This document shows positions 3,001-58,815 of a stretch of DNA of 64,000 nt, piece after piece. Every line of letters begins with the position of its first letter. Position 1 is the first letter of the stretch. Both the position numbers and the translations under genes were made by a program. This DNA comes from Styela clava (lineage: Eukaryota): NCBI RefSeq assembly GCF_964204865.1, contig NC_135255.1:13330001-13394000 (forward strand), given 5' to 3'. Under the pieces are notes generated by a model. That model searched no databases, had not been told where the DNA came from, and saw only the letters and a list, made by a program, of their open reading frames with translations.

Positions 3001-3435
3001 TGTAGTGAAGTTATCCTCCATAATATGGAAACGATTGTTGAGTCATCTCCAAAACTGAGAAAATGTCGGCAAGCCCTGGAATATAAAAAAAAATTCCATA
3101 AAATTTGGAATATCTGAGTTAATGTTCCCGAAACCTTGATCTAAAATGCTGATGAAAGTACAGTCAACATTGAAAAACCAAACAAATATTATTTTTCCAT
3201 TACAAGATAATTTACAAAGACTGTGTATATCAAATACTAATTCTAAATGCCTATGAAGAACGCTAAAGCTAAAATGTTTCTACAATAACATTTCTAAATT
3301 TGGTATACTCTAATGGTCCCTTGTTTGATTGGAAAATTGTTGTTAAAGAATTCCTTTTACTTGAATATAAATTCAAAAATTCACCAAATCAAATACAAAT
3401 ATTCATAAACTTATTTAAATAGCTGCATATTAGTT

Positions 3436-3674
3436 TGCGCTCCCGAAGTATGTGAACCAAAATGGCAGACACCGGAACGTAGTACGTGTAGGCTACTAGG
3501 TTAGGGTTAGGCCATATTTTTATGCCAATTTTCCTTATTTTAGTTCTACTACGAGTTCAGGGACTAGGCAAGTGACTCCTATACTATGTACCTGAAATTA
3601 TGGCCTAGCCCTAACCTGGCACACATACCACGCTCAAGTGTTTGTCATTTTGAATCACATACTTCAGGAGTACC
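3436..3674. mobile_element. MITE with ~85-bp TIRs containing GGTTAGGGTTAGG; paralogs at 19883-20121, 34193-34420, 51128-51361
   Basis: GGYRCTCCYGAAGTATGTGAA... inverted ends; 8-bp TSD TACTAGTT intact in units 3 and 4. Confidence 0.85.
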
Positions 3675-4092
3675 TACTAGTTTACCTTCCAACAAATCAC
3701 CATTTATCCACTTACCTCAATAACAGTGGAACATTATACGGCATCAGATCAGTAAGAAAATTATAAGCAGTTGATATGTGTTGCCTTGTATGAAAGCATG
3801 ATAAGTAGATAGACGCAACCTGAAGTTTATAAAATAGTAAAATCAATATCATCATGTAAATACTGTCATTATCAAAAATCGATCGGTCTATGCATTATTA
3901 TATTTTATATTTAAAATATTTAGTATCCTAAATGAGTTTATTATCATTAAGCAAAAAAGCAAATTCACAAAAATCTTTATTATTCCGAGAATTAGACATA
4001 AACATCTATAAAAAATAAAAAGATATCAATTTTAATAAACAACTGTACACTTACTATTATTATGTATCATGTTAGAATCTGGTAACCTAGAG

Positions 4093-4612
4093 CAGTGCTC
4101 TTCAACCGGGTATACGGTATACACTTGTGTATACCAGACCAAAAGTTGGGTATACAACTGAAAAAGGGTATACGAAAGGTGTACAGCGTAAATTAGGAAA
4201 TCTAAACTCTAATATATATAATTAATTATAAAATATTCAATTGGAGACAACAATGCAAACGCGGCGCACATGAAATATAAAATGTTATTAACGCTAAGAA
4301 CCGACGTGAGCACATTGTTACATCACAATTTATATAGATAATACGGTCATGTGTCTGGGTTGGTGATTTCGTCTGCCATGCACTTTGTTTGATTTACGTC
4401 GAACATTATTCCCGTCGACGCTAAGGCAGTCAGTCAAATTTATAACTTGCGGTCACTAGCCTATTAGATTGCATGATGAGATTGCAGTACAATATGGCCC
4501 TAAATGTTATTGTTTATTTGAGCCTCAAATAAACATTGGTATTTGTAAGGTATACAAAGTTCTTGAAAAACTGTAAAAGGTATACTTCGATAAAAAAGGT
4601 TGAAGAACACTG
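4093..4612. mobile_element. Non-autonomous hAT element (520 bp)
   Basis: TIR CAGTGYTCTTCAACC at both ends; 8-bp TSD ACCTAGAG at 4085-4092 and 4613-4620; single empty site at ~20532. Confidence 0.9.
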
Positions 4613-5615
4613 ACCTAGAGTACATCATCGCCAATAAGTTCACATTATATTTCTACCTGATTATGAAATGTGTAGTCAGAAAATCTGGCATCAGAGCTGA
4701 GCAATTCATCAATGGCTAAATCTGGAGAACAAGTTGTTATGCATCGACGAATAACTGCAGTAAAATTCTTTAACCATATTTGACGCGTTTTTACAGTTAT
4801 TGTTGTTGGTTCGACTAGTTTTGAAGCAAGATGCTGACGATATAGAAGATATCTGTATAGAAAATTTGATATAAAAAAAATGGACTCGGGATATTTTTTT
4901 TTCCAAATGGGAGATGTTTTGACCATTTATGTAGTAGTAGTACTTACATATTTATCCTGGAGGAGAGAAAAGAATAGGAATGGAACGCTTAGCACAACGT
5001 GCCACTGGATATCATCAAGATGTCAAAGGTGACGTGACAATTGAAATTTTAAGAAGTCGCTTAGACAATTTTTAATTCAAGATTCTCAGGCATGGCTGGA
5101 AACATTATCTAGCATTTGATTAGTTTTTTCGTTGTCTCCAAAACGTGAGTACAATTAAACAACTGAATGATTATTTTGTCTTCCTAAAAGTTTTAATTCA
5201 GTCACAAGGATCAAAAATGAGTCCTGAGAAGAGAAACTCAAATTAGCTATCAATACTTTTGGATTTTACAATGATGGTATCAAGAAGTATCCAAATAAGT
5301 ATTTCGAGGAAAATGAATTATTTGAATATACTTTTATTTTTATTATTAAAAAAATTTGCGAATCTGATTATAAAGTCCCACCTTAGCCATATTTGTCTTC
5401 TATCATTTTCATCACCCACATCCACAATTGCCTTTTCATAATAATCCAGTATAACGTTGACAGATTCGCTGGATAAATCGAGAATTACACTGAAAAGAAC
5501 ATGATACACCATAAAGCATTGTTCAAAAATGAATAGAATCCAAATAGGAATTCCATTACAATTTCCTTAATCACAAACATTGATTGAGTGGCACATCAGG
5601 ATATTTCTGGATCTA

Positions 5616-6100
5616 CAGGGTGTCCATAAAGTCCCTTTATATTTTCAATTTTGTTACGAAGTCAGGTCTAAATATATCTTAACCAGGTTTGTTGTTTTTT
5701 ATTCAGTGAATTCAAAAGTATTTTTACTTCATCGATCTCGATAAGTATGTTGATAGGTATTTGTTGGTTTGTTTGTCTGTCAGACACTTTCGTATGTTAC
5801 GCGATATCTCACGAAAACCAGGTTTGAATCTACTCCAAATTTTGCATGTGCATTCAATATATATTGAATCAGAAGCCTATTGCTTTTGGATGAATTATGT
5901 CGTATAATTAGCGAGTTAATAATTATTTAGTGATGGAACATGCGGTGTTGTTATAGAGTCAGAGCGAAGGATTCGAAACCGCAGATCGATAAGTCGACGG
6001 TCTTCGATCGCTAGCTAGTTTAATACATCTGTAAGGGCCGAAACAATTTATGACATCGATAAATACCATTTGCAATATTAAAAAAAATTGAGACACCCAA
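5616..6100. mobile_element. Tc1/mariner-like MITE with a nested Helitron/DINE-like insert (~5731-6019); paralogs ~21501-21984, ~35775-36240
   Basis: TA-CAGGGTGTC ... GACACCC-(nn)-TA. The inner piece has a GTTT/GTCT microsatellite, a GATCGA..TCGATC hairpin and a CTAG end. Confidence 0.5.
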
Positions 6101-6406
6101 TATATCTTAACACTCATAATTTCAACAGCCTTGATCTATTTCACTTACATGTAAATCATCCATAAATATGCTTTGTTCTTCCCAACAATTTTCCAACTAA
6201 TTTCCGGTAAAAGAGAAAGATGTTTGTCAGTTAATGAATCCGATAATCTCAATAAGTAGTGAAATAATTTCTTCAATTCTGATAAATTAATCACATCTAT
6301 ATCTGAAAAAGATACCAAAATGAAGCAAAAATTGAGAACCTAATATTAATATTAAAATCAACACTTAGGGTGTAATAAACTAGGCAATGCCGAAACCTGG
6401 TAACTA

Positions 6407-6552
6407 CAGGGTGGTGGCTAGAAAAACAGTACCAACCTAAAACAACCAAGAACCTAAAAGAAATAAAAATGTATCGAAAAAGAAATAAGCACACATTTTA
6501 TTTGTGATGTCATGTGACCTTCAAATTTTCTGCTTTTTTATCAACCACCCTG
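6407..6552. mobile_element. Small inverted-repeat element; paralogs ~22295, ~36547
   Basis: CAGGGTGGTGGCTAGAAAAA ... TTTTTATCAACCACCCTG. Confidence 0.5.
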
Positions 6553-7238
6553 GTGTATTTCACATGATGAATCTTGATTTTATAAAAACCACAAAACTTT
6601 TACCTATTTTCAAATAAGCTGAAGCACAAGTTTCAAAATACAGAAGTGCAGCATCAATGTCCGATGATTCTTGATTCAATTGAAACAAAGCTGCTTCATA
6701 ACAAAGTTTTGCATCAGATGGATTTTCTGTCACAGCTTCTTCAAAGACCTTTAAAAAAGTAATATTAAATAGATAAGATCTTCTTGCCTGTTTGTCCTAT
6801 CCATGACTGTTATAATATCCCATTAAAAATAAGTATGCATTAACGATTTGACATTTCTCATTTATTACCACAAGAAAAATAATTTTTTTATTCTTTCAAA
6901 CTTAACATAATAATTTTGATATTTCAGTGCCTTTTTTATGCTTCTAATGGCTCAGTTATAGTTACATAGTTAATAGCTTTTTCAAGCTGCAAAATAACAT
7001 TTCAAACGCCTAAATGTCTGTTTTTCAGGCACTTCGTCATTTTCTCACACAACACATTTTGACAACAATACCAAACGCGCAGAAATTTCACAGCCAAATA
7101 GCAGGGGAAACAAGTTTTTTGCAATTTCCCATGGCAATTCAAAACACTTCACGACAAAAATAGCACTTTTTTAGCCATTCAAATTTAATGAATGGAAACA
7201 TTCCAACCTCTGAAATCTAAACGAATACAAAAATTCAA

Positions 7239-19200: not shown

Positions 19201-22200
19201 AGACCGATCTAGTGAATTTTGTGAAAAAAAAAATATAGAAATTATTAAGTTCCCTCATGAAACTTTTATAAATCAATTAAAGAAGGGATTTAAACATTTA
19301 ACATCTATTTACTTAGCTTTACATACAACTCGTAAGAAAAGATGTTGATTAACATAAAACTTGAATAGAAAATAAATCAAATATTAATCAAAAGATTATT
19401 CAAGATTTACTACATTTTCCATATCATCATGTTTTGACACAATGTAGTTGAAGTTATCCTCCATAATATGGAAACGATTGTTGAGTCATCTCCAAAACTG
19501 AGAAAATGTCGGCAAGCCCTGGAATATAAAAATATATTCCATAAAATTTGGAATATCTGAGTTAATGTTCCCGAAACCTTGATCTAAAATGCTGATGAAA
19601 GTACAGTCAAAATTGAAAAACCAAACAAATATTATTTTTCCATTACAAGATAATTTACAAAGACTGTGTATATCAAATACTAATTCTAAATGCATATGAA
19701 GAACGCTAAAGCTAAAATGTTTCTACAATAACATTTCTAAATTTGGTATACCCTAATGGTCCCTTGTTTGAATGAAAGATTGTTGTTAAAGAAACCCATT
19801 TACTTAGAATATGAATTCAAAAATTCACCAAATCATATACAGATATTTATAAACTTATTTAAATAGTCGTTGCACACTAGTTGGCGCTCCTGAAGTATGT
19901 GAACCAAATTGGCAGACACCGGAACGTAGTACGTGTAGGCTACTAGGTTAGGGTTAGGCCATATTTTTATGCCAATTTTTCTTATTTTAGTTCTACTACG
20001 AGTTCAGGGACTAGGCAAGTGACTCCTATACTATGTACCTAAAATTATGGCTTAGCCCTAACCTGGTACACATACTACGCTCAAGTGTTTGCCATTTTGA
20101 TTCACATACTTCAGGAGTACCTACTAGTTTACCTTCCAACAAATCACCATTTATCCACTTACCTCAATAACAGTGGAACATTATACGGCATCAGATCAGT
20201 AAGAAAATTATAAGCAGTTGATATGTGTTGCCTTGTATGAAAGCATGATAAGTAGATAGACGCAACCTGTAGTTTATAAAATACTAAACTCAATATCATC
20301 ATGTAAATACTGTCATTATCAAAAATCGTTCGGTCTACGCATTATTATATTTTATATTCAAAATATTTAGTATCCTAAATGAGTTTATTATCATTAAGCA
20401 AAAAAGCAAAATCACAAAAATTTTTATTATTCCGAGAATTAGACATAAACATCTATAAAAAATAAAAGGATATGAATTTTAATAAACAACTGTACACTTA
20501 CAATTATTATGTATCATGTTAGAATCTAGTAACCTAGAGTACATCATCGCCAATAAGTTCACATAATATCCCTACCTGATTATGAAATGTGTAGTCATAA
20601 AATCTGGCATCAGAGCTGAGCAATTCATCAATGGCTAAATCTGGAGAACAAGTTGTTATGCATCGACGAATAACTGCAGTAAAATTCTTTAGCCATATTT
20701 GACGCATTTTTACAGTTATTGTTGTTGATTCGACTAGTTTTGAAGCAAGATGCTGACGATATAGAAGATATCTGTAAAGAAAATTTGATATAATAAAAAT
20801 GGACTCGGGATATTTTTTTTTCCAAATGGGAGACGTTTTGACCATTTATGTAGTAGTAGTACTTACATATTTATCCTGGAGGAGAGAAAAGAATAGGAAT
20901 GGGACGCTTAGCACAACGCGCCACTGGATATCATCAACATGTCACTTAGACCATTTTTAATTCAGATTCTCAGGCATGGTTGGAAACATTATCTAGCAAT
21001 TGATTAGTTTTTTTGTTGTGTTTCCGAAACTTGGGTACAAATTAAACAACTGAATGATTATTTTGTCTTTCTAAAAGTTTTAATCAGTTACAAAGATCAA
21101 AAATGAGTCCTGAGAAGAGAAACTAAAATTAGCTATCAATACTTTTGGATTTTACAATGATGGTATCAAGAAGTCTCCAAATAAGTATTTCAAGGAAAAT
21201 GAATTATTTGAATATACTTTTTTTTTATTATTAAAAAAATTTGCGAATCTGATTATAAAGTCCCACCTTAGCCATATTTGTCTTCTATCATTTTCATCAC
21301 CCACATCCACGATTGCCTTTTCATAATAATCCAGTATAACGTTGACAGATTCGCTGGATAAATCGAGAATTACACTGAAAAGAACATGATACACCATAAA
21401 GCATTGTTCAAAAATGAATAGAATCCAAATAGGAATTCCATTACGATTTCCGTAATCACAAACATTGATTGAGTGGCACATCAGGATATTTCTGGATCTA
21501 CAGGGCGTCCATAAAGTCCCTTTATATTTTCCATTTTGTTACGAAGTCAGGTCTAAATATATCTTAACCAGGTTTGTTGTTTTTTAATCAGTGAATTCAA
21601 AAGTGTTTTTACTTCATCTATCTCGATAAGTATGTTGATAGGTATTTGTTTGTTTGTTTGTCTGTCAGACACTTTCGTATGTTACGCGATATCTCACGAA
21701 AGCAAGGTTGAATCTACTCCAAATTTTGCATGTGCATTCAATATATATTGAATCAGAAGCCTATTGCTTTTGGATGAATTATGTCGTATAATTAGCGAGT
21801 TATTAATTATTTAGTGATGGAACATGCGGTGTTGTTATTGAGTCAGAGCGAAGGATTCGAAACCGCAGATCGATAAGTCGACGGTCTCCGATCGCTAGCT
21901 AGTTTAATACATCTGTAAGGGCCGAAACAATTTATGACATCGATAAATACCATTTGCAATATTAAAAAAAATTGAGACACCCAATATATCTTAACACTCA
22001 TAATTTCAACAGCCTTGATCTATTTCACTTACATGTAAATCATCCATAAATATGCTTTGTTCTTCCCAACAATTTTCCAACTAATTTCCGGTAAAAGAGA
22101 AAGATGTTTGTCAGTTAATGAATCCGATAATCTCAATAAGTAGTGAAATAATTTCTTCAATTCTGATAAATTAATCACATCTATATCTGAAAAAGAAACC

Positions 22201-23310
22201 AAAATGAAGCTAAAATTGAGAACCTAATATTAATATTAAAATCATGTCATCACTTAGGGTGTAATAAACTAGGCAATGCCGAAACCTGGTAACTACAGGG
22301 TGGTGGCTAGAAAAACAGTACCAACCTAAAACAACCTAGAACCTAAAAGAAAACACACATTTTATTTGTGGTGTCATGTGACCTTCAAATTTTCTGCTTT
22401 TTTATCGACCACCCTGGTGTATTTCACATGGTGAAACTTGATTTTATAAAAACTACGAAACTTTTACCTATTTTCAAATAAGCTGAAGCACAAGTTTCAA
22501 AATACAGAAGTGCAGCATCAATGTCCGATGATTCTTGATTCAATTGAAACAAAGCTGCTTCATAACAAAGTTTTGCATCAGATGGATTTTCTGTCACAGC
22601 TTCTTCAAACACCTTCAAAAAAGTAATACTAAATAGAAGAAGATCTTCTTGCCTGTTTGTCCTATCCATGACTGTTATAATATCCCATTAAAAATAAGTA
22701 TGCATAAACGATTTGACATTTCTCATTTATTACCACAAGAAAAATAATTTTTTTAAAACTTAACATAATAATTTTGATATTTCAGTGCCTTTTTTATGCT
22801 TTTAATGGCTCAGTTATAGTTACATAGTTTATAGCTTTTTCAACCTGCAGAATAACATTTCAAACGCCCAAATATCTGTTTTTCAGGCACTTCGTCATTT
22901 TCTCACACAATACATTTTGACAACAATACCAAACGCGCCGAAATTTCACAGCCAAATAGCATGGGAAACAAGTTTTTTTGCAATTTCCCATGGCAATTCA
23001 AACTACTTCATGACAAAAATAGTACTTTTTTAGCCATTCAAATTTAATGAATGGAAACATTCCAACCTCTGAAATCTAAACGAATGCAAAAATTCAATAT
23101 AAATACTTTGCTTGCTACAGTAGTACAGTCGGCTGCTTAATGCAGTAGGTTGGCATGCATAGATGTATTTGCCTCAACTTTATAAATAACAGTTAGTAAG
23201 ATAGAAATTTCATTGAGATGGAATTGCAACTTCATTAATTTTAGACAGAAATGTATGCTAGACTGCATTTGAGTTTCAATTCTAATATTTGCTTTAAACA
23301 GGCGTTAAAT

Positions 23311-24955: not shown

Positions 24956-26426
24956 GATCGGATTAGCAAGCATTGTCCTGTTTGTTAACTTCTCGGATCA
25001 CACAAACTACAATGCTAGTTATATTGTCAATATTCAAATTACATAAATCATAAGGTGCCTTTGATTACAGAATCCCATTTTTATTATTATTTGATTTGAT
25101 TATTATCTTGCTTAATATCTATCAACTACTATGTGTAATGTGATAATGGTTAAAATTAATTTTGTGTTTTGCTTTTTGTTTGCATTGGCAACAAATATAT
25201 AAGTATTGAAAAATAAAGAAATATGGTATTTATAAAAGATAGTGAAGGCAGAAGAGGCATATTTTATTGTTGAAGTACAGTGATACCTCAGTAGTCGAAT
25301 GACTCGTTACTCAAACATTCAGCAGTCGACCAAAAATTATAGTCAAAAATACTGAAGTTCCTTAAAACGAAAATCGGGTGATCGAACATTTGAGCATTCC
25401 CTGAGTGAGATTACATCAACCAAACAGCAAATCTCGACTGCCTCTTTACCACTCAACAACAGAGCCATGCTAATATATGTGAACATGAAAGACAATATAA
25501 AGAAGTACGCGTATGGTTTATGTCACAATAAACTGTTGGTTGGTACAGCAATTTTCACGACTAACGAGGAAGCAGAACTGTCACAAGATGGACAAATATT
25601 TATGCAGTCATCGTAAACAATGAACAAATCCCATAGAACCCAAAGATTTTTATCTTCATTATGTTTAATCTTTATTATGTACACATTTAAATGATTATTG
25701 TTGTTTAAAAACACTTTTTGTTGATAGTTAGTTAAAAACATATTACATTACATAGGCTGTCTAATACATTAAATTCTCAAATTAAAATTTCTCATTCATT
25801 CCACACAAGTCATACATCTTTTTTATTTTCATATACTTTTCAAAAAAATAATAATTTAGATATTTTAGTGCCTTGTTTTTATGGCTCAGTTGAAGTTGCA
25901 AAAAACATTGTTAATAGCTTTTTTCAAGCTGCAAAAAACATTTCAAATGCCCAAATGTCTGTTTTTTCTGTAAATCATCATTTCCTTGCACGAACAGGCC
26001 AAGACTTATATTGAAAACAATACCAAAAGTACAGAAATTTCACAGCCAAATAACGTGGGAAACAAGTTTTTTGCAATTTACACGACAATCCAAAACACCA
26101 CACAACAAAAATAGCAAATTTTTCGTGGTTAAAAACAACACACCATCTAAAAACGAAAGCATAATCCCAATATAAATACTTGCTACAGTACATTGCTTAA
26201 TGTAGTAGGTTAGCAACAATACTAGAATGCTGGTTATAAAATAAAGCACATGATGATGAACTATTTAACTTCACATGAATAATCATTTTATTAAGAATCA
26301 TCGATTTGGACTTATATAGGTGGCACCTGATTACAAAATTCTATTTTTTTATCATTAATATTATTTGATTATGATCTTGTTCAATATCACTCATCTAACA
26401 TGTGCAGCAATTTCACAGCCAAATAG

Positions 26427-26458
26427 CGTGGGAAACAAGTTTTTTGCAATTTCCCACG
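26427..26458. promoter_or_regulatory. Inverted CSL/Su(H) paired site (SPS) upstream of collectin C
   Basis: CGTGGGAA-16 nt-TTCCCACG. Variants at 7102-7133, 22960-22992, 26054-26084, 37213-37244, 58141-58172. Confidence 0.55.
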
Positions 26459-26629
26459 ACAATCCAAAACACCACAACTCAAAAATAGCAATTTTTTAGT
26501 CGTTGGAATTTAGTGGTTCAAAACAACACAGAACACAGCATCTAAAAACCAAAGCATCATCCCAATATAAAGCTGTATTGACTGCATTTGAGTTATAATG
26601 CTAATGTTAGTTCCAAACAGGCATTAAAC

Positions 26630-29081
26630 ATGAGTAAGGGTATACTATATTGTATGTTTTTGAGCATTCAATTGCTCATCAATCAAGTATGTTGCAATCA
26701 AAGAATTTGCATGCAAATTGAAAGTGTCAATGCAGAAGAAACGTACCCAATTCCACCACAACGAAGCTCACAGGGTGTTCCGGGCAAACGTGGACCACCA
26801 GGTGAAATTGGCCCGAAAGGGCCACAGGGGCCAAGAGGCCCAAAAGGAATTGCTGATTATGAAAGAATTAATGCAGCAATAGCATCAGGTAATTTAAATT
26901 AATATTTATTTGCTATTGGCCGTAAGCATCAGTGACGCTTGTACAAAGCCTTGTTTCGAGTGGAAAATCTTGCAAAAATTAGATTTCCCTTTATAAGAAT
27001 ATATTGAAGTTTACTTCTTATTGTAAATATATATATATATGCTTTACATCTTTTTAATTGGTGATATGAAGACTTTCCGTATAAATGGACTTGGTATATA
27101 CAAACTTAATAATGGGGTTTTGGCAGAACATCCAAGTATGTTGTGTTGCAAACTTTATTCTCTCATTCATTGAAAAATTAAAAAAAATAGTGTATCACTA
27201 ATTTCAATGTTTTTAAAAAATTTAGTTTGTTTGAATTGTACTATTACTCCAGCAACCCATACTTTTATATTTAACTTATTGCAGCGATAAATGATCTGCG
27301 GACAGAAACGGAAGAGAAGATGAATAAAACTATGAATGATCTTCAGCAGAGGATGGGTAATAGTTACTAAACTATAAGTTATGCAAAACTGTTTTGTTAA
27401 CATGACATGATGAATTTTTTGTCAAGGAGTTTTGTCTCAAACATAAAATCAAATGCAAACTGGAAACATAAAATTGTTTGGCAAAAAAGATTCAGAATCT
27501 AGAATTCCCAACATGAATTTAATTCATTTTTAACCCTTTCCATGCGATTTTTATTTTTTATTAAATAATCGTATTTGCTACGCCGACTTTATGCATTTGT
27601 ACCCCCACAACTAATCGATCGACTAACGAAAAAGTAATGATCCTCTGCTGCCCACTGACGGCTTGTTGGAAAGCTTATTTAAAGAGCTTGCAATTGGCGA
27701 TTAAAAAAAATTTTTTTTTTAAAAGGGGTGGTCTGAGTCACAAACCGGATAGAAAAAAGGCATTTTTTTTTCTTGGGTGTTGAAACTTCAAACCGTGATA
27801 AAAAATAGAAATATTTGCTAAATCCTTTACTGTTACCGCTTCTTGGTTGGCAAACAATGCATAATATTGCTGTAGCAATTTCGTTATCTAACTCAAAATA
27901 CTTTGGTAGATGGAAGGGATAATTTGTCTTCTATCACTACCCAAAAAACACCGAAATTTGCATAAATTTCAAAAACACTCCATCGTTCCTCCGCAAATAA
28001 AACTCCCATGGTAAACGAAAGCGAGATTTATCGTCGCTTATGTTAATCTCGAAGAAGACTTTTTATCAATAAACTAAAACCCGGAAAAACTAGACCAACA
28101 GTTTGCGACCGATTGCTAAATAAAACAGTGGAGTACATCAACGTACCCGCCGCAATCTAGCGAGTTTTGTCGTGGGTACGTATACGTGCCCACCGCACGG
28201 AAAGGGTTAAACGAAGCTAAATGAATTTTTCATTTTCTAAATATAATAGTCAACTGCGAAGTCATTCACAAGAATACTTGTTATCGGATGATACTTCGTG
28301 GAACACAAGTGAATTTTGACCAAGCAACACAAGCATGTAGAGATATTGGTATGAATATTGGATACATTGAAGATGAAACACATTACCAAAAAATAGCAGA
28401 GTTAGTCAGATCAAAATCAACATCATCTCTTACAGGATACTGGACAGGACTATTGTACAAAAACTCAGTGAGTATTTAAATTTGATTCATAACGAATATG
28501 GTGAACCAGCAAATATTTATCATTTCTATCACATTAAATTATCATTGACTTATCTCGGATTAGGCTTAGAGCATAGTGCCAAACGTTAGGAATACGCTTG
28601 CCACAACACCTCTGATTACCCTGCGTGGGTTGGATGGTCCGATCCTGTGTGGGATAACTATGTACAAGATAATTGCTGGATTCCTCGCTTCCATAGGGTA
28701 GTTCACATAACCGCTGGTCAGTTACAGCTTCCTTCACCGTCAAGTTCATGCATCAGAAAACTGGCTAACTAATCCCATACCCAACATGACTGGTACCCGT
28801 ACAAGAGGCTGCGGTTCCCCATATCATTATTAAGTCGCCTTATCGCCTCACCCTTGATACATATGTAACTCCTATCCTATCTATTTCAGCAACTTGTGAC
28901 ACTTTCTGGAAATCCATCACCATTCACTAAATGGTATCCGGGTAGACCCAATAGTGGTGAGCAATACAAAAATGTGTACATTTGGGTCCAGAAAGATACA
29001 GGAAGTGTAAACCAGGGCATGTATAACTACATTCCAACACCCCTACGACCTGGAGTGTTATGTCAAATCATGTATACCTAA
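26630..29081 (+). CDS. Collectin-like protein copy C, intact, 246 aa
   Basis: Exons 26630-26888, 27285-27356, 28250-28467, 28890-29081; open frame, GT-AG; piggyBac-type MITE in intron 2. Confidence 0.9.
27534..28206. mobile_element. Non-autonomous piggyBac-type element (673 bp) in collectin C intron 2
   Basis: TTAA-CCCTTTCCATGCG ... CGCACGGAAAGGG-TTAA; single TTAA at the equivalent site in copy A (~8320). Confidence 0.9.
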
Positions 29082-30494
29082 GATCATATTAACAAGCATT
29101 GTCTACAGATTTCTTATTTGTTAACTTCTCCGATCACACAATACTACAATGCTAGTTATATTGTCAATATTCAAATAACGTAAATCGTATCGTGCACCTA
29201 ATTACAGAATTCCATTTTTTATTATTATTTCATGATTTGATTATTATCTTGCTTGATATCAATCCTTCATGAGGTGACTATGGTCAAAATTAATATTATA
29301 TAAAAAAATAAATAAAAAAGTATGGTATATATAAAAGATAGAAATGGGAGAAGCATATTTGATTATTATTACAGTTGTTTTGTGGAAAACAGCAAATTTT
29401 CATTTTATGACAGTTGAAGGATTAATTAACATTAACAAACAGACAATTTTTCCTAATACCATTAATTCTTTGGAAGGGAATTTGATGAAAAAACAATGTC
29501 ATGCGCACTCTAAAATAAAGGAAATTGATAACCACTGAAGTATAAAGAGCTACTGAGATTATAAGAATTTTGATGTAGAATTCAGTGTTAGTGCATGTGT
29601 ATTCAAAATATAATGCAATAAACGTAATAAAGGATCTATAATTAGAAAACATCTCAATACCATACCTGTGTGGCAGCTAAGCTGTCTCCCTTCTTCACCA
29701 AAACATCTGCCCACATCATAGAAATATCAGTCACTTTCTTTTTCATCTGTCTTATCGTTTCCTCATTTATTAACAGTTTTTGTATCGCAGTAGTCATAGT
29801 TTTACACAAAAAACTGTAAATCCAAGAGAAAATTTTTTTCTCCAATGAAAATGATGTTATAAATATAACTTTGCCATTGACAAGATAGAGTTTGTAAAAC
29901 CTCATTTGTCTTTTCTTATTTTTTCTAACAAAAATGGAAATTAGATAGACAAGAAGAAATTGAAAACTCAGTCAAACCTTTCCTCTTATTACTAGAATCT
30001 TATTATTTTCAGGAACAAATTATTAAAGTTACAAAATTTCTGACATTACATTTTGATAAATGTGGAATGAAAATTTACATTTCGTTTTAAATTTGCGATA
30101 ATTTTTAGAATAGAAAGACATAAATCAGAATGATATGTTTAATTTGTTACTGTATATATACTATGTAAATAAAATCATTCAGTTATTCAGTTGTTTTATT
30201 CGTCGATCATGGGGGAATGCAACATAGAATTCAATGATAGGAATAAACAAGTTATAAAGTACTGGTTAGGATGAAGTTAAAAAAAAAGACGATTCTCAAT
30301 TCTTACTTGCAACTATTAGCAGTGTCCAATTTTTGCTGAGATATTTCCAATCGCAATTTTTCCCGAAGTAATTGTAACGCTGATAATGGATCTTCAGTTG
30401 ATGAAGAATTCTTGATAGCAACTGAATCAATCATAATTATAGTAAAATTCAGTGTAACTTTGAAAAATCAGAAATTGAATGGATCAAATATCTA

Positions 30495-35700: not shown

Positions 35701-37554
35701 GAAAAGAACATGATTCACCATAAAGCATTGTTCAAAAATGAATAGAATCCAAATAAGAATTCTATTACGATTTCCAGGGTGTCCATAAAGTCCCTTTATA
35801 TTTTCAATTTTGTTACAAAGTCAGGTCTAAATATATCTTAACCAGGTTTGTTGTTTTTTAATCAGTGAATTCAAAAGTGTTTTTACTTCATCGATCTTGA
35901 TAAGTATGTTGATAGGTGTTTGTTTGTCTGTCAGACACTTTCGTATGTTACGCAATATCTCACGAAAGCGAGGTAGAATCTACTCCAAATTTTGCATGCG
36001 CATTCATCATATATCGGACCAGAAGCCTATTGATTTTGGATGAATTATGTCGTATAATTAGCGAGTTATTAATTAATAAGTGATGGGACATGCAGTGTCG
36101 CTATTTAGTCAGAGCGAAGGAATCGAAACCGCAGAGACGGTCTCCGATCGCTAGCTAGTTTAATACATCTGTAAGGGCCGAAACAATATATGACATCGAT
36201 AAATACCATTTGCAATATTAAAAAAAATTGAGACACCCTATATATCTTAACACTCATAATTTCAACAGCCTTGATCTATTTCACTTACATGTAAATCATC
36301 CATAAATACGCTTTGTTCTTCCCAACAATTTTCCAACTAATTTCCGGTAAAAGAGAAAGATGTTTGTCAGTTAATGAGTCCGATAATCTCAATAAGTAGT
36401 GAAATAATTTCTCCAATTCTGATAAATTAATCACATCTATATCTGAAAAAGAAACCAAAATGAAGCAAAAATTGAGAACCTAATATTAATATTAAAATCA
36501 ACACTTAGGGTGTAATAAACTAGGCAATGCCGAAACCTGGTAACTACAGGGTGGTGGCTAGAAAACAGTACCAACTTAAAACAACCTAGAACCTAAAAGA
36601 AAGCACCCATTTTATTTGTGATGTCATGTGACCTTCAAATTTTCTGGTTTTTTATTGACCACCCTGGTGTATTTCACATGGTGAATCTTGATTTTATAAA
36701 AAAACTACAAAACTTTTACCTATTTTCAAATGAGCTGAAGCACAAGTTTCAAAATACAGAAGTGCAGCATCAATGTCCGAGGATTCTTGATTCAATTGAA
36801 ACAAAGCTGCTTCATAACAAAGTTTTGCATCATATGGATTTTCTGTCACAGCTTCTTCAAAGACCTTTGAAAAAGTAATATTAAATAGATAAGATCTTCT
36901 TGCCTGTTTGTCCTATCCATGACTGTTATAATATCCCATTAAAAATGAGTATGCATTAACGATTTGACATTTCTCATTTATTACCACAAGAAAAATTTTT
37001 TTTTTATTCTTTCAAACTTAACATAATAATTTTGATATTCCAGTGCCTTTTTTATGCTTTTAATGGCTCAGTTATAGTTACATAGTTTATAGCTTTTTCA
37101 AGCTGCAAAATAACATTTCAAACGCCCAAATGTCTGCTTTTCAGGCGCTTCGTCATTTTCTCACACATTTTGACAACAATACCAAACGCGCAGAAATTTC
37201 ACAGCCAAATAGCATGGGAAACAAGTTTTTTGCAGTTTCCCATGGCAATTCAAAATACTTCATCACAAAAAGAGTACTCCTTCAAATTTGTTGGTTGGAA
37301 ACATTTCAACTTCTGAAAGCTGAACGAATGCAACAATTCAATATAAATACTTTGCTTGCTACAGTAGTACAGTAGGCTTCTTAGCGCAGTAGGTTGGCAT
37401 GCATAGATGTATTTGCCTCAACTTTATAAATAACAGTTAGTAAGATAGAAATTTCATTGAGATGGAATTGCAACTTGATTAAATTTAGACAGAAATGTAT
37501 GCTAGACTGCATTTGAGTTTCAATTCTAATGTTTGCTTTAAACAGGCGTTAAAT

Positions 37555-52710: not shown

Positions 52711-55238
52711 GTATGTATGTATGTTTATTCGTCTCGTAAAAGCAATATAAAAGAGTAAGTACTTATAAATACTGAAGACGGGATGTATGCACAAGACCAT
52801 ATTGGCCTAAAACACAGATGTGTGGCATACACCCCTTTGATTTATATAAATTATAATAGGGTAAATCAAATATGTACAATATGGTCCTTTATACAGGCAG
52901 TTGTGCGAGGAGGGTGGGTGGATGCGGTAACAGGGATATGGGTGGAGTGTACAAAACTGTTTGTACAAAGGAGTTTGTTAGACAAAACAACATCTATAAA
53001 TAGAGACACAACACAACATGAAACGCAATGCATATGAATATAGTAATAAAAAAATTTAAAAAAAAAAAAAAAAAAATTAAGAATTTGGATGAATGTACAA
53101 TACCATTGAGTGATGATACCACATACTATAAAACGCGGGAATGGTCAAGTTTAAAGGGTGTGTACATATATGGTATGCACCACTCAAGGGCGACAGTGTT
53201 ATAAGTGGTCTATGGCTGTTCTGGCCAAAATGTGACCCTACAGGTTTTGGCAAAATATGATAAAAAAGGTATGTATCAAATGACTCACTATTATAAGGTT
53301 TTTTTTTGAAATTCTGGATTCAGCCAAAAACAATGAAGTTTCAAAAAAAAAAAATTAATAAAAAGCATTTCCACAAAACCTATTATGGTTGCATTTCAGC
53401 CAGAAGATTAGAAAGGTATAAAGGTACAGTGGGATAAGGAATGATAAGTTATAAAGAGAAGCCATTTTACCATGTCATGGATTTTCCAATGTAAATTAAA
53501 ATAATAAAATTATATGGTATCCTGGGATGAGCAGAAGAAAAAGTGTGATTCGGAGATAGGTAGCAACAATGGAAATAAATTGAACAGCATGCTACTCAAA
53601 CAAAAACCATTGTCCCTACTATTTGAGCATTCTATCTATAACCTAAATTGCTGTGCTTTTGTTGTTGTCTAATTACGCATGATAATGAAATTAGAATGGT
53701 GTGCTAGTTATTAATTCAGTCGATTGTTCTATATTGAATCCGGGTGAAGTATCCTGTGGAGTTATTGAAATTGTCAGCTGGTCTATGGTGACTGAAGAGG
53801 AGGACAGTTTCCTGATAGTTCATTCAATCCAAATAATCAACAGCTCTCTCTTTCAGTGTTGAACTGACCTTAAAAAAATAATCTCCAAACAGTAACATGT
53901 TCAAAGCAGAGAAAATTGCTAATATGATGATAATATATATTGTTTAAGTTTGGAACGAAATTCTGAGTTCGATTTTGAATTTTTGATGTCATCGGGTAGG
54001 GAATTCCAAGCTTTTGGTCCACATACTGCGATTGATTCTTGTGAAATACTTTTACTGACAAATGGAATAAAAAAATTATCTTTATTTCTGCTGTTTGAAT
54101 TTGGGTTTGCTTGGAACAGGCTGTTCAGGCTGGACGGAAGCTCTCCAATGTGACAAGAGAACATCATATTACATAGTTCGAATTTAGCTAAATCCACAAC
54201 TCGTAGTAGCCTATGCTCTTTAAATAAGTCATCAATTTTTTCGCGATTACCTCTATGAAAAACTCTTCTAATAAAGCGATTGCAAACACTTTGAATTTTT
54301 TTGAGAATGGACGATTGGCGATGAACATAAGCTGAGGCACAATAACGAATATGGCTTTCTATCAGAGAGTGGTATAGAGATATTAAACAAGATGTATTTA
54401 AGTAGTTGGCTATTTTCGTAATGGCACTAAGAGACGACCTTGTTTTCGATAGAACCATATTGGTGTGTTGTTTCCAAGACAATTTATCATCGATCATTAC
54501 ACCCAGAAAGCGAGTCTGATTAACTCTTTCTATATTTATTCCATTTAATTCCAAATTTTGTTGCAGAGTTGGACACTTTTGCTTCGGCGTGCTAAATATC
54601 ATATATTTAGTTTTATCGACATTAATAGTGAGTTTGTTCGCAGACAACCAAGCTTGAATATTTTCTAAGTCGGTATTTGCCTTGGTCAAAAGTTCATGCA
54701 AGTTTTTGCCTCGAAGATATGGCGTTGAGTCATCAGCAAAAGTATGATATCAGAGTGAAGAAGAGAATTCGGAAAGTCGTTAATAATGATTGAAAAACAT
54801 AATGGAGCCAAAATAGAACCTTGTAAAGTACCTACAGTCAAATTACAGTATGTGCTAGATGCTACATCATTGTATATAACTACTTGTTTCCTTCCTGATA
54901 AGTAGCTTTTAAACCAATTATAACTCTGACCTCTAACGCCAATATGGTGCAATTTGGCTAGTAATATGTCATGGTCAATACTATCAAATGCCTTGGAAAG
55001 GTCCAAGAACATACTGAGAGTATACTCATTCTTATCAAATCCTTCTAGAATTTTACTGACAAGCAGGGATGTTGCATGAGATGTTGAATGATTTTGACGA
55101 AAGCCAAATTGTTGTGAATAAAAGAAATTTTTTTGGTCTAGGAATTGGTTGAGTCGTTTGTACATAATTTTTTCTAGAATTTTTGAAAATGCGGGAAGTA
55201 AGCTGATCGGTCGGTAGTTTTTTACATCTTTTGCATGA
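52711..55238 (-). mobile_element. 5'-truncated non-LTR retrotransposon (CR1/L2 group), RT ORF2 with one frameshift, 3' UTR and microsatellite tail
   Basis: NYRPISLLPAFSKILEK, QFGFR, FLDLSKAFD, QGSILAP, FADD (frameshift at ~54740), then a continuous ORF to the stop at 53919. On the minus strand it ends in AATAAA-(CATA)3-C at 52729-52711. Confidence 0.9.
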
Positions 55239-55788
55239 CGGCCGCATAGGTTGCAGTGGCCATACGCTGGTCGTGTATCTAAATATTTCTCAGCGGGTCT
55301 GTTCTAGTACACTCGGCAGACTAACATTGATAATAATAAAAAAGATTTAACGCCTTTCATATCTATTTTTGTATTTAACCGCTTACTATTAAAGTGTGTA
55401 AAGCGTGTCTTAATTTAGCATATCAGTATTTAGGGATTACATACATTTGGAACAATTGAAGGCCAAATATATTGTAATATTCTTAAATTTGATTGTCCTG
55501 GGATATGCCTGTTTAGTATCAAATTTCCAAATAAATAATACATTTATAGTAATACATTTACAATCCAGCAATGTGGAAATTCCCACTATTTGAATAAGTA
55601 TGAAAATAGAATAGGATTCGGTATTCTGGATTCGATTCAACTATTCTAGAATAGTAAATTATTCTGTAAGTGGAATTGCAAGTGGATTAATCAAAGCCAT
55701 ATACGTATGCATTCAATTCACTATAAACCAGCTGTATTGACTGCATTTGAAGTATAATTCTAATGCTAGCTTCAAACAGGCGGTAAAT

Positions 55789-57547: not shown

Positions 57548-58815
57548 GATCGGATTAGCAAGATCGGATTAGCAAGCATTGTCCACCGAGTTCTTTTCGT
57601 TAAGTTCTCTGATCACACAATACTACAATGCTAGTTAGGTTGTCAAATTACATAAAGCATATGGAGCACCTGATTACAGAATTCTATTTTATTATTATTT
57701 TATGATTCGATTATTATCGTGCTTGTGATCAATTACGTTACCTGCGATGTGACTATGGTCAAAATTAATATTGAATTGTGTTTTTTGTTATTGGTGACAA
57801 ATATATAAATAATAAAAAAGTATATCATTGTCGGCATATATAAAAGATAGAGATGGGAGAAGCATATTTGATTACTAAAGCAGTTGTTTTGTGGAAAACA
57901 GCAAATTTCAATTACATATCAGTCAAACAGACGATTATTCTTAATACCATTAAATATTCAGGAGGAAATTCGATCTGAGCAACTTCATGGATACTCTGAA
58001 ATAAAGGAAATTCGAGATGCAAAATACTATTTCGAACCTACAAATGACTGTTTTCGGTATTTCATCATTTTTTAACACGAAAATGTCAAGTGTTTTATTG
58101 AAAACAACACCAAAATTGCGGAAATGTCATAGCAAAATAATATGGGAAACAAGTTTTATGCAATTTCCCATGGTAACCCAATACATCCAATATATTCATG
58201 GCAAAATATTATCACCTTACACATTGGAGTTTACTGCTTGAAAAAACACAACACTTGAAAGCTAAACAACCGTGTCAATTCAATATAAATACTTCCAGTA
58301 TTCAAAATTTACGAGCTAAACCAAAGAATACTCTTGATGCAGTAGGTTGGCGAGCATAGATGTATTTGTCTTAACTTTGTAATTAACAATTAGTAAGATA
58401 AGTTTCATTTAATTGGAATTTATAGAAATCAAATCTCATTTATCGATTATGTTTTGAACAGTTAAAAACATACTCGACATCGTAGCATTGATAACCTTCT
58501 CGGGCTTTAATCCCCAATGTTGGATACAAATGTACGAGTGGCGGGTAAGCCAATTCATATAATGATGGTTAGTTACGGCTTCCTCCTCCCTTAAATTTAT
58601 GCATCTGAAACTAAGTTGTTCCTCTATCCATTCCCATGCCCAACATATATACAAATCCTAACCTAAGTAAAAACCGTAAGTAAGTAATTGGAAAAGTACA
58701 AACGCTACAACAAAGTGCAATAATCTATGGCAGAAATGTATGTAATCAATTTATTCTAAGCCAGCTGTGTAGACTGCATTTCAATTCTAATGCTAGCTTT
58801 AAACAGGCGTTAAAT

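What the first reader, a model, noticed from the sequence alone, without database searches (positions are those of the whole stretch)
26427..26458. Canonical Notch-dimer (Su(H)/CSL paired) site conserved upstream of the collectin genes
Seen: CGTGGGAA-ACAAGTTTTTTGCAAT-TTCCCACG, a head-to-head pair with a 16-bp spacer. B and D have CATGGGAA..TTCCCATG (17 and 16 bp spacer), F has TATGGGAA..TTCCCATG, and A has a mutated left half. Both halves co-vary (CGT/ACG vs CAT/ATG), keeping the symmetry. Known: inverted CSL sites 15-17 bp apart (SPS) bind Notch complex dimers in Hes1/E(spl) promoters. The same bases also contain a C/EBP-like TTTTGCAAT and a kB-like GCAATTTCCC. Inference: collectin transcription is wired to Notch and/or NF-kB-C/EBP, with copy-specific affinity.
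Basis: partly seen in the sequence, partly recalled or inferred. Interest (0 to 1): 0.7.

Follow-up and report, generated by a model that had tools for sequence, protein, structure and literature searches.

The report
Notch-dimer site before sea-squirt collectins
A head-to-head pair of CSL-type binding sequences 16 bases apart sits upstream of most genes of a sea-squirt collectin-like gene cluster, and the same rare layout lies upstream of two other collectin-like subfamilies and a Hes gene, so these secreted proteins are likely switched on by Notch dimers (untested at the bench).

Summary
The motif is real (26427-26458, 8+16+8) and is not a dispersed repeat: all 34 DNA matches lie in one 340-kb cluster. 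It sits 117-171 bp before a conserved TATA-like box in 29 of 29 copies. 17 of 26 genes carry an exact pair. The block changes half as often as its flanks (18 vs 36 changes, P=0.0007). Both TGGGAA cores are conserved once redundant and damaged copies are dropped (3 vs 12, P=0.002, post hoc). Genome-wide the pair is rare (45 sites) and peaks at 16 bp. It recurs upstream of Hes and of two other collectin-like subfamilies, but in 0 of 54 other family promoters. Notch keeps the K-D-R dimer residues and CSL is present. Binding and Notch dependence are untested. Verdict: likely a functional SPS (0.6), a known element in a new target class.

The parts
26427..26434 (+). left CSL half-site, consensus CGTGGGAA
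   Evidence: consensus as given in PMC8494340 passages
26435..26450 (.). 16-bp spacer, best-conserved part of the block
   Evidence: 5 changes vs 17.2 expected in 29 copies, P=0.0006
26451..26458 (-). right CSL half-site, head-to-head with the left one
   Evidence: 8 vs 9.5 changes in all 29 copies; core 2 vs 6.1 in 20 proximal copies of intact genes
26433..26442 (.). Grainyhead-like AAAC-NN-GTTT match overlapping left half and spacer (inferred)
   Evidence: 6 matches in the 64-kb window, one in each of the 6 elements; central two bases are the tolerant ones for GRHL2 (PMC13105062 passages)
26442..26450 (+). C/EBP-like match (recalled consensus); weak
   Evidence: present in 5 of 6 window copies; the pattern matches 244 times in the window
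26446..26455 (-). kB-like match, one mismatch to the recalled consensus; weak
26563..26572 (+). conserved TATA-like box
   Evidence: found 117-171 bp after the element in 29 of 29 copies; 3 changes in 10 columns
26619..26620 (+). AG acceptor 10 nt before the ATG; likely trans-splice acceptor
   Evidence: leader-like loose end at the matching AG of a paralog in run X4; 995 genomic copies of that 15-mer vs 5 control; followed by AG|GT in L167
26630..26888 (+). collectin-like gene C exon 1: signal peptide, Cys, short collagen
   Evidence: joints
27285..27356 (+). gene C exon 2 (neck-like)
28250..28467 (+). gene C exon 3, first half of C-type lectin-like domain
28890..29081 (+). gene C exon 4, second half of the domain and stop; 246-aa open frame
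26029..26176 (+). distal duplicate of the promoter segment (matches 26402-26571); pair at 26054 has a broken right half; TATA-like box at 26168
7102..7133 (.). copy before gene A, left half broken; gene has an exon-4 frameshift
22960..22992 (.). copy before gene B, exact pair, 17-bp spacer; gene intact
37213..37244 (.). copy before gene D, exact pair; gene frameshifted
58141..58172 (.). copy before gene F, exact pair; gene intact

Best explanation
The 32 bases are a head-to-head CSL pair with a 16-bp spacer upstream of a collectin-like gene, and they likely act as a Notch-dimer site (SPS): two CSL-Notch-Mastermind complexes would bind cooperatively and switch on the secreted protein in Notch-receiving cells. 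Shown: sequence, spacing, position before a conserved TATA-like box, conservation of the block, recurrence before Hes and two other subfamilies, and presence of CSL and of a Notch with the dimer residues. Inferred: binding, cooperativity, activation. Also inferred: a second factor that reads the conserved spacer (Grainyhead-like match, C/EBP-like match) helps open or gate the promoter. The element arose once in this cluster and was spread by tandem duplication. Gene C belongs to a lineage in which both halves moved from the A variant to the consensus G variant.
For: (1) Only in the cluster: 34 of 34 DNA matches at C6:13.27-13.60 Mb. (2) 24 of 26 genes have the element within 1 kb and 17 of 26 an exact pair. 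(3) Block 18 vs 36.1 changes, P=0.0007; cores 7 vs 14.2, P=0.028 in 29 copies and 3 vs 12.3, P=0.002 in 20 proximal copies of intact genes. (4) Independent relaxed pairs number 6, 11 and 5 at 15, 16 and 17 bp (hand count) vs 4.2 per spacing at 18-23 bp; P=0.011 for 16 bp without this cluster. 16 bp is the preferred gap in PMC7685452 (abstract passage). (5) One 16-bp pair lies 3.7 kb upstream of the bHLH exon of a Hes gene. (6) 2 of 21 independent outside loci lie within about 500 bp upstream of collectin-like genes on C5 and C17; P from 2e-5 to 0.006 depending on the null. (7) The Notch ankyrin exon reads K-x-x-x-D and R, gapless against 2f8x_K/3nbn; K..D is the Notch2/3 pattern (PMC10761890 passage). 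CSL found.
Against: The spacer is more conserved than either half (P=0.0006), which a pure SPS does not need, and the right half over all 29 copies is no better kept than flanks (8 vs 9.5, P=0.40). The subset that rescues it was chosen after seeing this. 11 of 29 copies have a broken half, and 4 of 20 intact genes have only a broken pair. The link between broken pair and damaged gene is not significant (P=0.084). 0 of 54 other family promoters have a pair. In the C5 trio only 1 of 3 keeps the 16-bp pair. 3 of the 5 exact C17 copies have a stop in exon 1. Most C6 copies use the A variant, not the consensus G variant. Two other Hes/Hey-type genes have only single sites. Chance pairs exist: C1 and C2 pairs lie in coding exons. 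No orthologous promoter from another species could be compared.
Confidence: 0.6

Rival explanations
1. The block is kept for other factors (Grainyhead/CP2-type, C/EBP, Rel) and at most one CSL monomer; the second half-site is incidental.
For: The spacer is the best-conserved part, and the most conserved 32-column windows start 6-10 bp left of the pair. AAAC-NN-GTTT is invariant and occurs only in the elements within the window. 9 of 11 broken copies are broken on the right. Tunicate collectins rise in inflammation (PMC5465252 passage).
Against: It does not explain the same geometry, with unrelated spacers, at Hes, C5 and C17. The right core holds in proximal copies (2 vs 6.4, P=0.045). The C/EBP-like pattern is common (244 in the window) and is lost in D.
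Confidence: 0.2
2. The pair is bound by CSL without Notch, as a standing activator or repressor, possibly by the second, divergent CSL paralog.
For: Two CSL loci exist, C18:7.20 Mb and C14:12.35 Mb. Notch-independent activation of terminal genes by LAG-1 is reported (PMC8289040 passages).
Against: Head-to-head 15-17 bp spacing favours the Notch activator complex; the Su(H)/Hairless complex does not bind SPS cooperatively (PMC8494340 passages).
Confidence: 0.1
3. A neutral chance match in the ancestral promoter, multiplied by tandem duplication and gene conversion.
For: All 29 copies are one origin. About 12 relaxed 15-17 bp pairs are expected by chance genome-wide. Repeats can inflate any spacing: 143 sites at 9-14 bp, many of the 50 listed from one repeat.
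Against: Block conservation P=0.0007, column-shuffle P=0.004; recurrence at two further subfamilies.
Confidence: 0.06
4. The palindrome matters as a DNA or RNA hairpin, or is kept symmetrical by hairpin-templated mutation.
For: A 9-bp stem folds (z -3.45 for copy C, -2.53 for D). The mirrored base change occurs in one group of copies. Contigs of three RNA-guessed runs bridge the element.
Against: Copy F folds no better than shuffles (z -0.43) and the two halves of the Hes pair do not pair in its fold. T-type, C5, C17 and Hes pairs are asymmetric yet mostly fit the CSL pattern.
Confidence: 0.04

Closest known systems
Sequence-paired / Su(H)-paired site (SPS) of Hes1 and E(spl); NTC dimer structure 3NBN
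   Same: Two consensus CSL sites, head-to-head, 16-bp gap (PMC7685452 and PMC8494340 passages); a Hes gene of the same genome has the layout.
   Different: The target is a secreted collectin-like gene family, not a transcriptional repressor. The spacer sequence is conserved. Most copies use the A variant at position 2.
Cryptic SPS of Hes5 (one strong plus one weak half)
   Same: Three T-type copies have a consensus left half and a one-mismatch right half.
   Different: The site at 26427 has two consensus halves. The isolated Hes5 pair was not dimer-dependent in PMC7685452 (passage).
Grainyhead-site plus SPS enhancers in Drosophila
   Same: Grainyhead sites enhance Notch reporters and synergise with SPS (PMC7213981 passages); a Grainyhead-like octamer is invariant here.
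   Different: Those are synthetic and place the sites side by side; here the match overlaps the left half and spacer, so binding might be sequential or exclusive.
Tunicate collectins (Styela plicata collectin-like proteins, Ciona MBL-like collectin)
   Same: Signal peptide, short collagen, neck, C-type lectin-like domain; known from PMC5465252 passages.
   Different: Both Pfam matches are below cut-off. The EPN/WND sugar-binding motifs (recalled) are replaced by RPN or TPN and YNY, so sugar binding is not established.

Membership tests
SPS (Notch-dimer site) | two CSL consensus octamers | tested here: met
   CGTGGGAA on both strands at 26427 and 26451
SPS (Notch-dimer site) | head-to-head orientation | tested here: met
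SPS (Notch-dimer site) | 15-17 bp gap, 16 preferred | tested here: met
   16 bp here; 17 of 18 exact cluster copies have 16, one has 17
SPS (Notch-dimer site) | lies in regulatory DNA of the gene | tested here: inconclusive
   117-171 bp before a conserved TATA-like box, but the start site is unmapped and the mRNA is likely trans-spliced
SPS (Notch-dimer site) | half-sites constrained more than flanks | tested here: inconclusive
   cores P=0.028 (29 copies), P=0.002 (20 copies, post hoc); right octamer alone P=0.40; spacer also constrained
SPS (Notch-dimer site) | host Notch has the ankyrin dimer residues and CSL exists | tested here: met
   K, D and R at the matching positions (the residue-number offset for chain 2f8x_K is recalled); CSL; Mastermind not searched
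SPS (Notch-dimer site) | cooperative binding of two CSL/NICD/Mastermind complexes | not testable with these tools
   needs EMSA
SPS (Notch-dimer site) | dimer-dependent transcription | not testable with these tools
   needs reporter and inhibitor tests
dispersed repeat / transposon end | copies at unlinked loci | tested here: not met
   34 of 34 matches in one cluster (the tool notes that counts are lower bounds)
Grainyhead site | AAC-NN-GTT with fixed C3 and G6 | tested here: inconclusive
   pattern met and invariant; two central mismatches to the optimum; Grainyhead gene not searched
kB site | GGGRNNYYCC (recalled) | tested here: not met
   one mismatch at position 9; degenerate sites can still bind
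collectin | signal peptide, collagen, neck, C-type lectin-like domain | tested here: met
   scores below Pfam cut-offs
collectin | Ca-dependent sugar-binding motifs | tested here: not met
   EPN/WND (recalled) absent in gene C and P0001/P0002

The most novel reading that the evidence does not exclude
Notch dimers drive a battery of secreted collectin-like proteins in this ascidian, and three distant subfamilies on three chromosomes gained paired sites independently (the exon-1 tree needs 3 changes in all 200 bootstrap trees), with the C6 version a compact SPS-plus-Grainyhead switch. Notch-dimer control would then reach terminal barrier or immune effectors, not only Hes-type regulators.
Probability: 0.3. 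Interest if true: 0.68.

Novelty: new member of a known kind. Interest (0 to 1): 0.46.

Why it matters
Most well-studied SPS targets are Hes/E(spl)-type regulators (own knowledge). A paired site before a 26-gene secreted-protein cluster and two other subfamilies points to a Notch-specified secretory or immune cell type in an invertebrate chordate. It also gives a natural allelic series (A/A, G/G, G/cryptic, 17-bp, broken halves) for testing dimer-site rules in one genome. Searches listed no paper on paired CSL sites or Notch control of tunicate collectin promoters; the library lacks most subscription journals.

Tried and rejected
Dispersed repeat: rejected. Co-variation as support: rejected, one event; the same changes could also come from templated mutation. 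Family-wide element: rejected. 0 of 26 promoters (2 kb, 12 loci) and 0 of 41 loci (1.2 kb; 28 with a signal-peptide exon, 13 without) hold a 15-17 bp pair with at most one mismatch; 40 of those 41 were picked from the first 100 listed of 200 matches. Spacers of 9-14 bp as background: unusable, only 50 of 143 listed and many from one repeat. C2 triple and C1 site: in coding exons, treated as chance. NOD family search: no hit; Notch found through PF00066. PDB searches did not print the Notch alignment, so residue numbers rest on the gapless range plus a recalled offset. No RNA holder listed as such; the runs laid are guessed RNA contigs and cannot give a start site or level. The leader sequence was not found in the two papers opened. 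The AU test of one clade did not run. The first ORF check had exon ends off by one and was redone. PTF1-type composite: no E-box seen next to the pair. COE/EBF site (recalled consensus): does not fit the G-variant copies. Two C17 family members (L156, L160) were not checked for near-pairs. Earlier-findings look-ups returned nothing. No supplements were read; genome-wide SPS lists in them may bear on novelty.

Full report
Observation. The window reads CGTGGGAA, 16 bases, TTCCCACG at 26427-26458. A sixth, damaged copy lies at 26054 in a tandem duplicate of the promoter segment. Gene E has none within 1 kb.

Context. The window is G000:C6:13330001-13394000. The nearest named relatives of the downstream gene are uncharacterised Styela clava proteins at 88-92% identity (9 of 10 hits). 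Gene C has four exons and a 246-residue open frame; its three introns are bridged by joints in RNA-guessed contigs. It encodes a signal peptide, short collagen, neck and C-type lectin-like domain, with Pfam scores below cut-off and without the recalled EPN/WND motifs. 'Collectin-like' describes the architecture only.

Not a repeat. A 181-bp promoter piece gave 34 matches, all in C6:13.27-13.60 Mb. In 444 kb of adjoining sequence there are 26 first exons and 29 full elements. 24 of 26 genes have an element within 1 kb, 17 of 26 an exact relaxed pair. Every element lies 117-171 bp before a conserved TATA-like box.

Transcript start. In run X4, 2 contigs carry a foreign 5' end joined at the AG ten bases before the ATG of a paralog. 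That 15-mer has 995 genomic copies against 5 for the control and is followed by AG|GT in 1 of 6 loci viewed. I read it as a spliced leader; its likeness to the Halocynthia leader is recalled, not verified. The true start is therefore upstream and unmapped. In Ciona, TATA boxes sit at -32 to -29 and many outrons are under 500 bp (PMC4691747 passages), which fits a start just after the box, but that is inference.

Conservation. On a tree built from the flanks, the 32 columns show 18 changes against 36.1 expected (P=0.0007; column-shuffle P=0.004). The spacer shows 5 vs 17.2, the left half 5 vs 9.5 (P=0.09) and the right half 8 vs 9.5 (P=0.40). This counts against a pure dimer site. Dropping 4 distal or orphan copies and 5 copies before damaged genes (post hoc, 20 left), the two TGGGAA cores show 3 vs 12.3 (P=0.002), and 5 of the 8 half-site changes fall on the two degenerate outer positions. 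Copies were anchored on a spacer pattern, but BLAST found the same 29. Tandem copies recombine, so these P values are approximate.

Co-variation. A to G on the left is one change. The mirror column on the right has two, one of which is the later C-to-A step in T-type copies. The A/A form is found in the three other lineages and is probably ancestral. This is one event. It fits selection toward consensus or templated mutation and is not independent evidence.

Genome-wide. The strict pair occurs 8 times in 377 Mb, 3 in the cluster. The relaxed pair occurs 45 times, 18 in the cluster. Collapsing duplicates by hand gives 6, 11 and 5 loci at 15, 16 and 17 bp, against 25 loci over six spacings at 18-23 bp (28 sites). 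The 16-bp excess has P=0.004, or 0.011 without this cluster. One 16-bp pair lies 3.7 kb upstream of the bHLH exon of a Hes gene, with further single sites around it. The two other Orange-domain genes have single sites only in 20 kb each.

Other subfamilies. Of 21 independent outside loci, two lie upstream of collectin-like genes. On C5 the pair is 494 bp before the ATG; of its two paralogs one has a 19-bp gap and one has lost the right half. On C17 five copies have an exact 15-bp pair and a sixth has one mismatch; three of the five have a stop in exon 1. With 175-1000 family genes the chance of two such hits is 2e-5 to 0.0015, and 0.006 if half of all pairs are assumed to sit in promoters (family size from 200 motif matches against 50 control). 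Yet 0 of 54 other family promoters carry a pair. On a 42-row exon-1 tree the pair-bearing genes need 3 changes; the tree is short and weak at its base, so independent gains are likely but not shown.

Machinery. Notch lies at C5:15.49 Mb. Its ankyrin exon matches chain 2f8x_K (also 3nbn) without gaps and carries K, D and R where human NOTCH1 has K1946, E1950 and the dimer arginine (offset recalled). Mouse Notch2 and Notch3 have K..D there (PMC10761890 passages). Two CSL loci are present.

Spacer. AAAC-NN-GTTT is invariant in the 29 copies and occurs 6 times in the window, once per element. GRHL2 tolerates changes at the two central bases (PMC13105062 passages; consensus also in PMC5829564 passages). 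Grainyhead sites boost SPS enhancers in flies (PMC7213981 passages). This is a post hoc match. The C/EBP-like and kB-like matches are weak.

Mechanism and verdict. Most likely (0.6) this is an SPS that lets Notch dimers activate the cluster, with a second factor reading the spacer. Rivals: other factors with at most one CSL (0.2), Notch-independent CSL (0.1), neutral copy (0.06), hairpin (0.04). It meets every sequence-level SPS criterion; binding and dimer dependence are untested. The element is of a known kind; the target class and its recurrence are what is new. All papers cited were seen as search passages only, none in full; PMC10970066 passages showed no lectin target for ascidian Notch.

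Noticed in passing
window 3046-6796, 19486-22687, 29654-29971 and repeats through C6:13.26-13.61 Mb, minus strand: Exon fragments of a ZFC3H1-like gene (P0011) are co-duplicated with most collectin units; the collectin genes appear to sit between its exons on the other strand.
   Followed up: partly
L046:5928; window 26619-26620: The cluster's mRNAs are likely trans-spliced; the leader-like 15-mer has 995 genomic copies, many in pairs 5-6.5 kb apart, which suggests LTR elements carrying the leader.
   Followed up: partly
G000:C18:7.20 Mb and C14:12.35 Mb (L173, L174): Two CSL genes, the C14 one more divergent.
   Followed up: no
window 53919-55303, minus strand: Reverse-transcriptase (LINE-like) fragments directly upstream of gene E, which lacks the element and is frameshifted.
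   Followed up: no
many contigs, e.g. G000:C2:29093343-29098013: A dispersed repeat carries an inverted CSL-like pair with a 9-10 bp gap in tandem units about 105 bp apart.
   Followed up: no
window 26563-26630: In gene C the proximal promoter copy is fused about 145 bp closer to the ATG than in most copies (202 vs about 349 bp), so its outron would be very short.
   Followed up: partly
genome-wide: A family of roughly 150 or more secreted proteins shares a signal peptide, a Cys-containing segment and a G-x-P-G-K-[KR]-G collagen start; a Ciona relative exists (P0010).
   Followed up: partly
L101 (G000:C8:14.30 Mb): A 574-residue uninterrupted open frame that looks like a TCP1 chaperonin subunit (recalled likeness) starts about 1.1 kb from a 16-bp pair.
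   Followed up: no
exons 3-4 of the cluster genes: Paralogs differ most around the loop where C-type lectins bind ligand (RPN, TPN, KPN, APR, TPR variants), a hint of diversifying selection.
   Followed up: no
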